From IMG/VR virus record IMGVR_UViG_3300032303_000855, positions 1 to 34,199 of that record: a stretch of DNA of 34,199 bases. The stretch is one strand, 5' to 3'. Position numbers and translations under genes: made by a program. Below the pieces are notes generated by a model. That model was given only the letters and a program-made list of their open reading frames with translations, ran no database searches and was not told where the DNA came from. Each line of letters starts with the position of its first letter. Position 1 is the stretch's first letter. This DNA is from a virus. Taxonomy: Duplodnaviria; Caudoviricetes. Positions 20,461-28,663 of the stretch are shown piece by piece.

Positions 20461-21134
20461 GCATGGCAGTCATCATTCCAAGCAGAGGCAGACCTTCTAA
20501 CATAGAAGATTTACTTATTGCGTGGAAGGAAACTGAAACTAAGGCTGACTTGTTTGTAGTTGTTGACAATGATGATCCGACAATTGACGCCTACCGGGAA
20601 CTTCCAGGGTTCACTCTTCTTGTGTATCCACGCGAAGGCAAGGGAATGGCCAAGCCGCTTAATCGCGCAGCTCGTGAAATTATCAGCACTGGCGATTACG
20701 CATTCTTTGCATTCATCGGCGACGACCACAGGCCACGCACTCAGCATTGGGATGCCAAGTTAATGAATGCACTCGATGAGATAGGCACAGGCATCGCCTA
20801 CGGCAACGACCTTCTCCAAGGAGAAGGTTTGCCAACGGCTGTTGCCATGAGCGCAGACATAGTCCAGGCACTTGGCGGCATGACACCGCCTGACATGATT
20901 CACTTATACCTGGACAACTTTTGGCTGAAACTAGGTCAAGACACTGCGATTGCTTATCTTCCTGAAGTCATCATCGAGCATCTCCACCCTACAAACGGCA
21001 AAGCCCAATGGGACGAGGGATATCGCGCTGTTAATGCAGACGAGGTCTATTCCGCTGATGCCAAGGCTTTTCACGAATACATCGCCAGCGACCTCTATCA
21101 ATATCTCTTGCAGGATTTACGAGACCAGGCATGA
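20457..21134 (+). CDS. GT2-like glycosyltransferase
   Basis: VIIPSRGRP, VDNDD, FIGDDH (xDD), HLYLDN, IEHLH. Confidence 0.85.
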   Translation: MSMAVIIPSRGRPSNIEDLLIAWKETETKADLFVVVDNDDPTIDAYRELPGFTLLVYPREGKGMAKPLNRAAREIISTGDYAFFAFIGDDHRPRTQHWDAKLMNALDEIGTGIAYGNDLLQGEGLPTAVAMSADIVQALGGMTPPDMIHLYLDNFWLKLGQDTAIAYLPEVIIEHLHPTNGKAQWDEGYRAVNADEVYSADAKAFHEYIASDLYQYLLQDLRDQA

Positions 21135-21147
21135 TGTTGCCTTGCAA

Positions 21148-22008
21148 ATGAGAATCCTCATCACAGGCGACGCTGGCTTTGTTGGTCGCAACTTTAAGCG
21201 TCACCTAGAAGGCCACGACATTACCGGCGTGGATATAGTCAACGGCATCGATACTCGCGACTTCTTCCGCACTGATGACACCCATTTTGACCAAGTCATT
21301 CACCTGGCAGCAGTTGTCGGTGGGCGCAAGATGATTGAAGGCTCGCCACTTGCCCTGGCTGTCGATCTCGCCATCGATGCAGAAATGTTCGGTTGGGCGC
21401 TACGCACCAAGCCAAAGAACATCACCTATTTTTCCTCATCTGCTGCATATCCAACTTTCTTGCAAGCACCAGGAATGCCATCAATTCGTTTGGAAGAATC
21501 ATTTATTGATTTGTCATACATCCAAACACCTGATTTAACTTACGGATGGGCAAAGCTGACAGGGGAGATGTTGGCAGTTCACGCAAGAGCGCAAGGATTG
21601 AAAGTGCAAGTCTTTCGTCCATTCTCGGGTTACGGATCAGACCAGGCACTTGATTACCCATTTCCATCATTTATTGCTCGTGGCTTGAGTAAGGCAAATC
21701 CTTTTGAAATATGGGGCGATGGCACTCAAGTGCGCGATTTTATCCATATCGATGACATCGTCCAGGCGGTGCTTACGGCTTGGGAGACTGACATTGAGAC
21801 AGTCAACCTTGCTACCGGCAGACCGACATCCTTCAATGACTTGGCTCGCCTAGTGGCAGATGCTGTTGGCTATGCGCCAGCAGTGCGCCATTTAGAGGCA
21901 GAGCCGGTTGGCGTTGCCTACCGAGTAGGCGATGCCAAACTGATGAAAACCTTCTACACACCAAAGATTTCTTTGGAAGAAGGAATTCATTTGGCTCTCG
22001 CCAACTAG
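21148..22008 (+). CDS. NAD-dependent NDP-sugar epimerase/dehydratase (extended SDR)
   Basis: ILITGDAGFVG, IHLAA, FSSSAAY, YGWAK (YxxxK), GDGTQVRDFIHIDD. Start placed at ATG 21148. Confidence 0.93.
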   Translation: MRILITGDAGFVGRNFKRHLEGHDITGVDIVNGIDTRDFFRTDDTHFDQVIHLAAVVGGRKMIEGSPLALAVDLAIDAEMFGWALRTKPKNITYFSSSAAYPTFLQAPGMPSIRLEESFIDLSYIQTPDLTYGWAKLTGEMLAVHARAQGLKVQVFRPFSGYGSDQALDYPFPSFIARGLSKANPFEIWGDGTQVRDFIHIDDIVQAVLTAWETDIETVNLATGRPTSFNDLARLVADAVGYAPAVRHLEAEPVGVAYRVGDAKLMKTFYTPKISLEEGIHLALAN

Positions 22009-26498: not shown

Positions 26499-27250
26499 CC
26501 GAATTTGCCAAACCAGGCGATGTCCATCAAAACCTTGCCGATGAATTACGCAGCGTCATCGGCAAGGCGGCGATGAACGCACCGCGTTCACGCCAAAGCG
26601 CCGTTGGACTCAGCGAGGTGGGCGAGCCTTGCATCAGAAAATTGGCATACAAGATTCTTGATTTTGATAAGACAAATCGTTCATCTGATCCTTGGCCAGC
26701 GATTCAAGGAACTGCAATCCATGCCTGGCTTGCCGAGCAATTCAGCGACGTGTATGACGGCGAAGAAAATCAACTTTATTTAGTAGAAACACCTGTCAAA
26801 GCTGCGGAAGGTTTAGAAGGCACAGCCGACTTATTTGATGTGCGTCAAGGAATGGTCATTGACCACAAATGTGTTGGTGCAACTTCTATGAACAACGCCA
26901 AGAAGCGCGGGATGACAGAGCAACAGCGTGTGCAAATAAACCTTTATGGACTCGGATTTGAGAACGCTGGATACAAGGTTGAGAAAGTGGCGCTTGCCTT
27001 TTATCCCCTAGGTGGACGCCTAGATGGAATGCACACGATTGTTGAGGCATACAACCGAAAGATTGCTACCGATGCAATCCAGCGATACGAGCATTTACAA
27101 GCCTTGGTGTGGCAACTAGACCCCGAGAACAGCCCCGCCACCTGGGATTTGTTACCCATGACCATTTCATATCTTTGCACTTACTGTCCCTGGCTTTTGC
27201 CAAAGTCTCGCAATCTGTCAAAAGGATGCCCCGGGGAGATAGTCGCATGA
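26495..27250 (+). CDS. Cas4/RecB-like PD-(D/E)XK exonuclease
   Basis: SEVGEPC.RK, GTAIH, GTADL, IDHK, QINLYG, C-terminal CxxC...C. Confidence 0.88.
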   Translation: MTEFAKPGDVHQNLADELRSVIGKAAMNAPRSRQSAVGLSEVGEPCIRKLAYKILDFDKTNRSSDPWPAIQGTAIHAWLAEQFSDVYDGEENQLYLVETPVKAAEGLEGTADLFDVRQGMVIDHKCVGATSMNNAKKRGMTEQQRVQINLYGLGFENAGYKVEKVALAFYPLGGRLDGMHTIVEAYNRKIATDAIQRYEHLQALVWQLDPENSPATWDLLPMTISYLCTYCPWLLPKSRNLSKGCPGEIVA

Positions 27251-27435
27251 GTCCGACATATTCCTATCGCTGCGGTCACTGTGGCTGGTCAATTGCTATC
27301 AATAAAAGCATTGCACAACGCGATGAAGCGCCCATGTGTGGCGATTGTTGTGTGCAGATGACCCGAGAAGTATCACAAGCAGTCGGATCATCGTTTAAGG
27401 GTCAGGGCTTTTATACAACGGATTCACGCCGATGA
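27247..27435 (+). CDS. FmdB-like Zn-ribbon protein
   Basis: MSPTYSYRCGHCG...PMCGDC...FKGQGFYTTD; ATGA overlaps at both ends. Confidence 0.85.
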   Translation: MSPTYSYRCGHCGWSIAINKSIAQRDEAPMCGDCCVQMTREVSQAVGSSFKGQGFYTTDSRR

Positions 27436-28157
27436 ACGCAGTCAGTCTCTTTGCAGGGGTAGGCGGATTTGACCTTGCCTTTGAACGCAACGGGATTGAC
27501 GTGATTGCAGCGGTTGAAATTGATGCACAGGCTCGTGGAGTTTTGAAACAGAATTTTCCAAAGACAAATTTGTTCGACGATGTCTGCAAAGTTACAGGGA
27601 AGGATTTACTAGATGCCGGATTCAAACCAAGTGAAGGAATCATTGCTGGCGGATTTCCTTGCCAAGATTTGTCAATTGCAGGGAAGCGAGCTGGACTCGA
27701 TGGTGCTCGCTCTGGACTCTTCTTTGAAATTGTTCGACTCCTCGATGAAACCAAAGCGAAGTATTTCATCCTCGAAAATGTCCCTGGCTTACTTAGTTCG
27801 CAATCAGGATCAGACATGGCAACTGTCATCAGCGCGTTGGATGACCTCGGGTATCACGTCGCGTGGCGAGTGCTTGATGCTCAATTCTTCGGAGTTCCCC
27901 AGCGACGCCGTCGAGTGTTCATTGTCGGATGTCTTGGAGACAACTGGTCAACACCTGCACAAATACTCGCTCTCAGCCAAGGCCGCGCAGGGCATCTTGC
28001 GAAGAGCAACGCGCAGGGAAAAGACGTTGCCGGAAACGCTAGAAAAAGCGTTACGCGAATGCGCGGCTGCGGAGAATACCAATTAGACCTCACAGCCCCC
28101 GAATTTCTTACAACGGATCAAACAGATGCAACTGACCTTGTGGTTCACAAAGAGTAA
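27432..28157 (+). CDS. C5-cytosine DNA methyltransferase, N-terminal part (motifs I-VIII)
   Basis: SLFAGVGG, GGFPCQ, ENVPG, PQRRRRVF; ends without motifs IX/X. Confidence 0.93.
   Translation: MNAVSLFAGVGGFDLAFERNGIDVIAAVEIDAQARGVLKQNFPKTNLFDDVCKVTGKDLLDAGFKPSEGIIAGGFPCQDLSIAGKRAGLDGARSGLFFEIVRLLDETKAKYFILENVPGLLSSQSGSDMATVISALDDLGYHVAWRVLDAQFFGVPQRRRRVFIVGCLGDNWSTPAQILALSQGRAGHLAKSNAQGKDVAGNARKSVTRMRGCGEYQLDLTAPEFLTTDQTDATDLVVHKE
27613..28086 (+). CDS. Nested +1-frame ORF, candidate methyltransferase small (beta-like) subunit; start uncertain
   Basis: 157 codons inside the MTase gene; C-terminal SEFPSDAVECSLSDVLE...KYSLSAKAAQGILRRA resembles overlapping MTase partner peptides. Confidence 0.62.
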   Translation: MPDSNQVKESLLADFLAKICQLQGSELDSMVLALDSSLKLFDSSMKPKRSISSSKMSLAYLVRNQDQTWQLSSARWMTSGITSRGECLMLNSSEFPSDAVECSLSDVLETTGQHLHKYSLSAKAAQGILRRATRREKTLPETLEKALRECAAAENTN

Positions 28158-28332
28158 GCGAGCACAGAATGTTGACGACAACGAGTCATGGAAGCGGGGG
28201 GGGGTAGTGCCAACTTTGAATGCGTTTGATATGGGTGACACACGAGCAACTGTTTTGATTCTTACCGAACCAATTTTGATGCGAGATCGAGAAGGAAAAG
28301 CGGGGGGGGGGCAAAGGATTGTTGATAAGTAA
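28126..28332 (+). CDS. Methyltransferase variable/target-recognition fragment, cut short at a G10 tract
   Basis: VVPTLNAFD and REGKAGGG motifs; joins the next ORF if one G is removed. Confidence 0.65.
   Translation: MQLTLWFTKSKRAQNVDDNESWKRGGVVPTLNAFDMGDTRATVLILTEPILMRDREGKAGGGQRIVDK
28302..28311 (+). repeat. G10 homopolymer (a second G9 tract lies at 28196-28204)
   Basis: Read directly from the sequence. Confidence 0.9.
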
Positions 28333-28663
28333 TAAGGCTTTCACTCTTTCCTCCGCAAATTTCCATGCTTTGTTTGAGCCTCAGAAAAAAGATGACACGC
28401 AAGGGACAGTCCGTCGCTTGACACCAACAGAGTGTGAGCGACTCCAAGGTTTTCCTGACGGATGGACTGCCGAACGCTTCGACGAAAAGAAGCAAGAAGT
28501 CGTCGCTCAAGCAGACTCAAACCGCTACAAGCAGATGGGAAATGCAGTTGCAGTGCCTGTCGTGGAATGGATTATCCAGCGCCTAGTCGCTGCAAACAAA
28601 GAATTGACATCACAAGATGACAATGCAACACCCCAACCAAAAACAGAAAGCAGGGAACGATGA
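28319..28663 (+). CDS. C5 methyltransferase C-terminal fragment (motifs IX-X)
   Basis: VRRLTPTECERLQGFPDGWT, RYKQMGNAVAVPV. Confidence 0.88.
   Translation: MLISNKAFTLSSANFHALFEPQKKDDTQGTVRRLTPTECERLQGFPDGWTAERFDEKKQEVVAQADSNRYKQMGNAVAVPVVEWIIQRLVAANKELTSQDDNATPQPKTESRER

What the first reader, a model, noticed from the sequence alone, without database searches (positions are those of the whole stretch)
27432..28157. Methyltransferase with a second polypeptide nested in the +1 frame
Seen: a 157-codon +1-frame ORF lies wholly within the catalytic gene, with a protein-like C-terminus (CSLSDVLE...KYSLSAKAAQGILRRA). One TAG (28084-28086) and 13 sense codons separate it from the same-frame 28126 ORF. 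Known: M.EcoHK31I is an alpha/beta C5-MTase whose beta chain is encoded in an alternative frame inside alpha, and M.AquI is split in two. Inferred: an enzyme assembled from three or more chains encoded in overlapping frames.
Basis: partly seen in the sequence, partly recalled or inferred. Interest (0 to 1): 0.7.

Follow-up and report, generated by a model that had tools for sequence, protein, structure and literature searches.

The report
Three-chain phage methylase with poly-G switches
A phage DNA cytosine methyltransferase gene hides a second conserved gene one base out of step and puts its last conserved motifs on a third, separately started reading frame, so the enzyme is likely built from three chains, and runs of G in that third gene vary in length between related phages and likely switch parts of it on and off.

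Summary
The nested +1 ORF (27613-28086) is real. It is a homologue of the M.EcoHK31I beta chain: 20 of 36 residues match by eye from published primers. In relatives its frame, not alpha's, carries the conserved protein at alpha codons 181-200 (0.81 vs 0.40 identity). Unlike M.EcoHK31I, this beta lacks motif IX. Motifs IX-X lie on a third gene, likely starting at TTG 28138; 45 of 52 relatives have a start codon at that spot. A complex prediction supports binding (0.78, best control 0.08). Readthrough of the TAG is not supported. The third gene holds the window's only two homopolymer runs of 8 or more: G9 (in frame) and G10 (one base too long, breaking it at 28302-28311). At one homologous site 40 of 51 loci carry G7+, 11 of them out of frame. 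Six cultured mycobacteriophages identical over 1,280 flanking bases carry G8, G9 or G10. Verdict: new variant of a known kind; expression and activity untested. The scan has noted both nested beta genes and poly-G switches on other DNA.

The parts
27432..28157 (+). Alpha-N chain: C5-methyltransferase motifs I-VIII (catalytic PCQ, ENV, PQRRRRVF) plus one variable-region module at its end; no motif IX or X
   Evidence: PF00145 1-169, E 2.9e-57; TIGR00675; phrog_116
27613..28086 (+). Nested +1-frame gene: M.EcoHK31I beta-type chain, 157 aa, conserved core at about residues 56-150, lacking motif IX
   Evidence: phrog_16143, E 5e-12; dual-frame conservation; 43% over 95 aa to the EcoHK31I-layout beta of L184; predicted binding
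27601..27604 (+). AGGA, a Shine-Dalgarno-like site 8 nt before the beta ATG (weak; not tested)
   Evidence: sequence
28059..28145 (+). Variable-region module at the end of alpha-N; same length as in L001/L005 but with a 12-residue core replaced (possibly degenerate or of changed specificity)
28138..28332 (+). Third gene, front part (64 aa from TTG 28138, overlapping the last 20 nt of alpha-N in the +1 frame): module 1 and the start of module 2
   Evidence: start codon at this exact position in 45 of 52 separately encoded homologues (24 ATG, 20 TTG, 1 GTG)
28196..28204 (+). G9 run in module 1, in frame here; the homologous site is G7-G12 in 40 of 51 loci and out of frame in 11 of those
28302..28311 (+). 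G10 run in module 2, one base longer than the in-frame spacing; shifts the third gene out of frame
   Evidence: 6 of 8 parsed loci are in frame; the window and L140 are shifted by +1; the run's own Logan contig shows the same letters with no gap at depth 18 (may be the source sample)
28319..28663 (+). Third gene, back part: rest of module 2, motif IX and motif X; two TTG codons 7 and 10 nt after the G10 run could restart translation (inferred)
   Evidence: PF00145 270-322, E 2.5e-12; profile A7 aligns to M.HhaI 269-318

Best explanation
The locus encodes a phage C5-cytosine DNA methyltransferase on three conserved reading frames that likely assemble into one enzyme, and the third frame is here broken by a poly-G run that likely acts as a reversible slippage switch. 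Shown: alpha-N has motifs I-VIII; the nested +1 frame is under protein-level selection and is homologous to M.EcoHK31I beta; motifs IX-X sit in a separate frame with a positionally conserved start codon; the G runs vary in length among relatives. Predicted: beta residues about 76-83 pair with alpha residues 142-147, and beta also touches the motif IX segment of the third chain, so beta would be a structural clamp rather than the motif IX donor. Inferred: the third chain starts by translational coupling; its tandem 35-45-residue modules are target-recognition domains, as in multispecific phage methyltransferases; the enzyme protects phage DNA from host restriction; one-base slips in the G runs give lineages with the third chain intact or cut. 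This genome is in a cut state at G10: either OFF, or lacking some modules if translation restarts at TTG 28319/28322.
For: Beta is in +1 in 188 of 188 rows with a beta hit (190 rows, duplicates and the window included). The conserved frame flips from alpha to beta across the overlap. About 5,600 representatives of 50%-identity clusters match the beta profile. A start codon sits at one fixed position in 45 of 52 separate third chains, against 1 of 8 where the module is fused to alpha. Complex: score 0.78, best of 3 controls 0.08; the mark was reached by 116 of 157 solved complexes and 2 of 215 mismatched pairs; the runs agree in at least 86% of contacts; partner pLDDT at least 77; the counts hold only roughly for three chains with my own alignments. 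The predicted pairing strand corresponds to M.EcoHK31I beta residues 38-45, and deleting 42 residues there is reported to weaken subunit association. G7+ runs: 67 in 113.7 kb of variable regions against 17 in 532 kb elsewhere; GGGGGG codes 66 of 418 Gly-Gly pairs there against 6 of 323 in alpha-N and 8 of 451 in flanking genes. Among cultured cluster J phages, six identical over 1,280 flanking bases carry G8 (1), G9 (3) or G10 (2). The nine module motifs I searched occur in 36 different combinations across 56 split loci.
Against: There are no expression, proteomic or activity data for any chain. The modules' identity as recognition domains is not shown by any tool: the PDB profile search matched only motifs IX-X. 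Out-of-frame alleles at G7+ (11 of 40) versus shorter runs (0 of 11) give only p = 0.09. The link between splitting and G runs (42 of 56 vs 1 of 87) is mostly one broad clade (48 of 49 split rows) and partly circular, since a slip can itself make a locus look split. A start codon after the G run is not specific to G-run loci (33 of 40 vs 7 of 11). The cluster J run lies in the alpha tail, at a different site from the window's runs. No within-population length variation was seen, because only contigs were available. The alpha-N/C-terminal part of the complex resembles solved single-chain enzymes, which may help the score.
Confidence: 0.72

Rival explanations
1. Three chains as described, but the G runs are unselected by-products of glycine-rich loops, and out-of-frame alleles (this genome included) are decaying, inactive genes.
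For: Every run sits on Gly-Gly codons; the enrichment counts homologous sites that are not independent; frameshift excess p = 0.09; mostly one clade; the window's alpha-tail module also looks altered.
Against: Runs recur at several non-homologous sites and in cluster J. Run lengths are bimodal, with G2-5 or G7-12 and none at G6 among 51 loci. Shifted loci show no stops in alpha-N. The window's only two runs of 8 or more in 34 kb are both here, against about 0.01 G9+ runs expected.
Confidence: 0.2
2. Alpha-N and the third frame are joined by a programmed +1 ribosomal frameshift (or beta is read through its TAG into the third frame), so the enzyme has two chains like M.EcoHK31I.
For: The junction is +1 in 36 of 52 loci with a near-constant 17-nt offset; some starts are weak TTG codons without a clear ribosome-binding site; 2 loci (L070, L086) do fuse beta to IX-X.
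Against: The codon at the junction is a start codon in 45 of 52; 16 of 52 use another frame, some after a gap of 70-84 nt; beta and the third frame are separated by exactly one stop in only 5 of 52.
Confidence: 0.1
3. The G10 break is a sequencing or assembly error, and the true genome has an intact third gene.
For: Homopolymers are error-prone; the matching run X1 may be the source of this contig, so it is not independent.
Against: A second assembly of that run gives the same ten Gs with no gap at depth 18; finished genomes of cultured phages also differ at such a run; L140 has the same +1 state.
Confidence: 0.08
4. The nested ORF is a shadow of alpha's conservation and is not a gene.
For: 4% of synonymous shuffles give an equally long open +1 frame.
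Against: Where alpha diverges (codons 181-200) the +1 frame is the conserved one; it is homologous to an experimentally required subunit.
Confidence: 0.02

Closest known systems
M.EcoHK31I (YGGCCR), alpha/beta C5-methyltransferase (as described in PMC2836561 and PMC3404938; Lee, Kam and Shaw 1995 not read)
   Same: Beta gene nested in another frame of the catalytic gene; beta core homologous (20 of 36 residues identical without gaps, read by eye from primers); alpha has motifs I-VIII.
   Different: There alpha keeps the recognition domain and motif X, and beta ends in motif IX. Here beta stops after the core, and IX and X are both on a third gene. No neighbouring restriction endonuclease was identified. 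Specificity unknown.
M.AquI (CYCGRG), two-polypeptide C5-methyltransferase (PMC3404938)
   Same: Split inside the variable region: I-VIII on one chain, the distal variable region plus IX-X on another.
   Different: No nested beta is described for M.AquI; sequence homology to M.AquI was not tested here.
Multispecific Bacillus phage methyltransferases (SPR, phi3T, rho11, H2, phiBssHII; cited in PMC8936443)
   Same: Phage-borne, with tandem interchangeable modules between motifs VIII and IX.
   Different: Those are single chains (recalled); module homology and multiple specificity were not shown here.
Phage contingency loci: T2 agt and T4 rIIA (bioRxiv 10.1101/2025.10.21.683753); that preprint also mentions poly-G tracts in Fletchervirus receptor-binding proteins and in a Bordetella-phage methylase gene
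   Same: Homopolymer runs in a phage DNA-modification gene that shift its frame.
   Different: Mutation and reversion rates were measured there, not here; here several G runs lie in putative recognition modules of a multi-chain enzyme.
Cluster J mycobacteriophage methyltransferase loci (Omega gp127/gp128 and kin)
   Same: Same beta (49-53% identity), alpha split from a IX-X gene, one poly-G run after the beta stop.
   Different: Annotated as two unrelated-looking genes of varying length, with beta unannotated in all 17 phages fetched; the run is in the alpha tail, and the modules differ from the window's.

Membership tests
C5-cytosine DNA methyltransferase (PF00145) | Motifs I-X including the catalytic Pro-Cys, ENV and motif VIII | tested here: met
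   I-VIII on alpha-N and IX-X on 28319-28663, both over Pfam's cut-off; a continuous relative aligns to M.HhaI 13-171 and 270-317
C5-cytosine DNA methyltransferase (PF00145) | Methylates cytosine C5 in a defined sequence | not testable with these tools
   no methylome or assay
M.EcoHK31I-type alpha/beta enzyme | Second chain encoded inside the catalytic gene in another frame | tested here: met
M.EcoHK31I-type alpha/beta enzyme | Beta homologous to M.EcoHK31I beta | tested here: met
   20 of 36 identical by eye from published primers; 43% over 95 aa, E 5e-20, to the L184 beta, which has the EcoHK31I layout. The M.EcoHK31I record itself was not retrieved
M.EcoHK31I-type alpha/beta enzyme | Motif IX on beta; motif X and recognition domain on alpha | tested here: not met
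   beta ends at 28086 without IX; IX and X are on the third frame. IX is on beta in only 10 of 165 non-redundant loci
M.EcoHK31I-type alpha/beta enzyme | Beta required for activity | not testable with these tools
   only a predicted interface
M.AquI-type split enzyme | I-VIII and IX-X on separately initiated genes | tested here: met
   layout and conserved start codon; initiation itself is inferred
Multispecific phage C5-methyltransferases | Tandem exchangeable modules in the variable region | tested here: met
   36 combinations of nine searched motifs in 56 split loci
Multispecific phage C5-methyltransferases | Each module is a target-recognition domain giving its own specificity | tested here: inconclusive
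   PDB profile hits cover IX-X only; structure model too poor to use, mean pLDDT 48
Simple-sequence-repeat contingency locus | Repeat length varies between otherwise identical genomes and changes the frame | tested here: met
   met in the cluster J relatives: six phages, G8/G9/G10, 0 other differences in 1,280 nt. At the window's own two sites, variation is seen only between more distant relatives
Simple-sequence-repeat contingency locus | High, reversible mutation rate within a population | not testable with these tools
   only contigs were available

The most novel reading that the evidence does not exclude
The poly-G runs are a specificity switch, not just ON/OFF. Because the catalytic chain, the beta clamp and the motif IX-X chain start separately, a slip changes which recognition modules are attached without losing the enzyme. 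In cluster J phages G8 puts one module on alpha, G9 skips it and picks up the next module from another frame, and G10 gives neither, while the IX-X frame is untouched. A phage lineage would then carry a shifting set of methylation specificities from a three- or four-chain enzyme written in overlapping frames.
Probability: 0.35. Interest if true: 0.78.

Novelty: new variant of a known kind. Interest (0 to 1): 0.52.

Why it matters
The nested beta gene is known from one characterised enzyme, yet the family is large (about 5,600 cluster representatives; 157 phage and 518 plasmid records) and was unannotated in all 17 cluster J genomes fetched. This locus shows that beta is kept when motif IX sits elsewhere, so beta must have another job. 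It would also extend natural C5-methyltransferase fragmentation from two chains to three. If the G runs switch modules, phages can hedge against host restriction by phase-varying methylation. This is directly testable in cultured M. smegmatis phages that already exist as natural G8, G9 and G10 alleles.

Tried and rejected
Readthrough of TAG 28084: rejected. ATG 28126 as the third start: disfavoured; the conserved position is 28138. Poly-G as a restart signal: 39 of 47 runs have an in-frame start 3-13 nt downstream against 22% background, but loci without a run have the same codon nearly as often (7 of 11 vs 33 of 40), so this is inconclusive. Showing that beta equals the linker after motif VIII of single-chain enzymes: no PDB sequence hit at E up to 10; one longer homologue only; the model of the natural beta-IX-X fusion L070 had mean pLDDT 60 (its alignment A6 held one wrong-frame row of 41), and fold searches gave nothing at E 0.001 or Z 5. 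Model of a third chain: pLDDT 48, unusable. ESM Atlas: only unnamed clusters. Beta has no Pfam or NCBIfam family. The front of the third gene has no hit in Pfam, PHROGs, NCBIfam or the phage collection. One published M.EcoHK31I primer found no plasmid record. No RNA holder listed. Promoter and terminator scan at chance level. The careful tree did not finish; the quick tree was used (137 of 165 loci). The Hannaconda G run was missed by my pattern and left out of the cluster J count (16 of 17 parsed). Literature: nine full-text searches listed no paper on a three-chain or poly-G-switched enzyme of this family; the library lacks most subscription papers, and bioRxiv supplements are closed.

Full report
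Setting. The window is a whole IMG/VR virus record (G000, 34,199 nt). It has terminase, portal and capsid genes and an integrase, WhiB and a primase-helicase, so it is likely a temperate phage of an actinobacterium (inferred). The methyltransferase lies in the replication/recombination region. None of the neighbours scanned was identified as a restriction endonuclease.

Observation. Alpha (27432-28157, 241 aa) matches PF00145 positions 1-169 only. A separate frame, 28319-28663, matches positions 270-322. The +1 ORF 27613-28086 (157 aa) is as described and matches phrog_16143 (E 5e-12). Its length alone is not decisive: 813 of 20,000 synonymous shuffles reach it.

The nested ORF is a gene. Of 190 rows (duplicates and the window included), 188 had a beta hit, all in +1; the other two were a truncated locus and a distant family. 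In 44 of 126 aligned loci (60% nucleotide identity or more), alpha-frame identity falls to 0.40 at codons 181-200 while +1 identity rises to 0.81. Synonymous change at conserved alpha residues falls from 0.59 to 0.04, the most variable codon position moves from alpha's third to beta's third, and +1 stops are 0 of 6,108 inside against 183 of 2,552 upstream. To remove query bias I picked 80 loci with alpha residues 1-95: 17 were truncated or lacked the motif pattern, 37 had beta in +1 with a stop-free core, and 26 had no beta hit; among the top 22, all 15 testable loci had beta. The beta profile matches 5,603 representatives at E 0.001 and 3,978 at 1e-10.

It is a M.EcoHK31I beta homologue, without motif IX. 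PMC2836561 (passages; supplement file 1 passages and part 2; file 2 not searched) describes beta as encoded in another frame inside alpha, carrying motif IX, with association weakened by a 42-residue N-terminal deletion. Its truncation primers, read by eye, give beta residues 37-72, which match window residues 75-110 at 20 of 36 without gaps. Loci L184, L187 and L189 have the published layout (IX on beta, X on alpha), and the L184 beta is 43% identical to the window's over 95 aa (profile probability 99.5). Across 165 non-redundant loci, IX lies on a continuous alpha in 87, on a separate frame in 56 and on beta in 10, and no IX-X was found in 12. The beta core is constant while IX moves, so beta has a role apart from IX (inference).

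The third chain. In the split group alpha-N stops shortly after a module, and the next module begins in an overlapping frame. The codon at one fixed position is ATG, TTG or GTG in 45 of 52 such loci, all 52 have a start within ten codons of the module's anchor residue, and only 1 of 8 fused loci has one at that position. In the window this is TTG 28138. Readthrough from beta is not conserved: one stop in 5, two to six stops in 31, another frame in 16. Omega gp127/gp128 and its kin are annotated as two genes in the same way. PMC3706429 (passages) mentions only a putative methylase, and PMC11855218 (passages) concerns a nested HNH gene. PMC3404938 (passages) gives M.AquI as the precedent for a I-VIII / IX-X split.

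Predicted assembly. With alpha-N 1-189, the IX-X piece and beta 56-155 as partner, the score was 0.78 against a best control of 0.08. The mark was reached by 116 of 157 solved and 2 of 215 mismatched pairs, run agreement was at least 86% and partner pLDDT at least 77; these counts hold only roughly for three chains with my own alignments. The best contacts pair beta 76-83 with alpha 142-147, and the motif IX segment of the third chain is also in the interface. No solved structure matched beta by sequence, but alpha-N and IX-X resemble solved enzymes. This supports binding and does not show it.

Poly-G runs. The window's only homopolymer runs of 8 or more are G9 (28196-28204) and G10 (28302-28311), both in the third gene. 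G9 is in frame. G10 is one base longer than the spacing in 6 of 8 parsed loci and shifts the frame; with nine Gs the third gene would be one ORF of 174 aa (arithmetic). A contig from run X1, possibly the source sample, has the same letters. At the G9 site 40 of 51 loci have G7-G12 and 11 have G2-G5. Eleven of the 40 are out of frame and none of the 11 (p = 0.09). Runs are enriched in variable regions (67 in 113.7 kb vs 17 in 532 kb) and beyond glycine content (15.8% vs 1.9% and 1.8% of Gly-Gly pairs), though homologous sites are not independent. They occur in 42 of 56 split, 1 of 87 continuous and 1 of 10 beta-fused loci. The split loci are mostly one broad clade with continuous members interspersed (quick tree, 137 rows), and a slip can itself make a locus look split, so this link is weaker than it looks. 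The cleanest evidence is from cultured cluster J phages: 16 of 17 parsed give G9 (9), G8 (4), G10 (2) and G6 (1), and six are identical over 1,280 flanking bases except for the run. There G8, G9 and G10 give three different alpha ends while the IX-X frame is unchanged. The preprint 10.1101/2025.10.21.683753 (passages) establishes phage contingency loci and notes unstudied poly-G tracts in a phage methylase gene.

Modules. The variable region is built of 35-45-residue units; nine searched motifs occur in 36 combinations across 56 split loci. Their position between motifs VIII and IX and a recalled Thr-Leu-type motif suggest target-recognition domains, as in multispecific Bacillus phage enzymes (PMC8936443, passages). 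No tool confirmed this.

Mechanism and verdict. Most likely this is an orphan anti-restriction methyltransferase of three chains with slippage switches in its recognition region, caught here in a shifted state (confidence 0.72). The nested beta is a known kind. Beta without motif IX, the third chain and the switches together make a new variant; nine library searches listed no paper describing it. The scan's earlier notes report nested betas and poly-G switches in other genomes, and no look-alike of this stretch; my reading was recorded before I saw them, and they are not evidence. Interest 0.52.

Noticed in passing
L191-L195, L190, L198-L208 (cluster J mycobacteriophages): One poly-G run gives three different C-termini of alpha; annotators called genes of different lengths, and beta is never annotated. 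Several also carry an HNH gene inside alpha (for example Constella, Schatzie, Yeet).
   Followed up: partly
L236, L239, L243, L252-L254, L260, L263, L273, L277, L285, L289: A sister family (motif VIII reading G-A/Y/F-P-H) has no hit to the beta profile, yet 23 of 26 such loci keep the +1 frame open. In the 12 printed, that frame has a similar Trp-x-x-Ser-Gly segment and tandem modules, and ends in a motif IX-like stretch in the 11 where the printout reaches it.
   Followed up: partly
L196:1909-4197 (P1-like phage-plasmid gene annotated as Dam-family methyltransferase): Its N-terminal half is a C5 domain with an unannotated beta ORF in +1; most of the 40 listed rows among 518 plasmid hits are of this kind.
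   Followed up: partly
L008 and L019, after the alpha stop: A further G8 run in the alpha tail and, in L008, a short module in its own frame between alpha-N and the third gene, suggesting single modules encoded as mini-genes.
   Followed up: no
L070, L086: Natural fusions of beta to modules plus IX-X, giving a two-chain M.AquI-like layout in overlapping frames.
   Followed up: partly
window 28083-28118: A 12-codon core of the alpha-tail module differs completely from the 81%-identical relatives L001 and L005 without any length change; unexplained.
   Followed up: no
window 27109-27435: The upstream zinc-ribbon (FmdB-like) ORF probably starts at ATG 27247, and its stop overlaps the alpha start (ATGA), suggesting translational coupling.
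   Followed up: no
window 20950-22008: An NAD-dependent epimerase/dehydratase gene lies between the structural genes and the integrase, a possible surface- or DNA-modification cargo gene.
   Followed up: no
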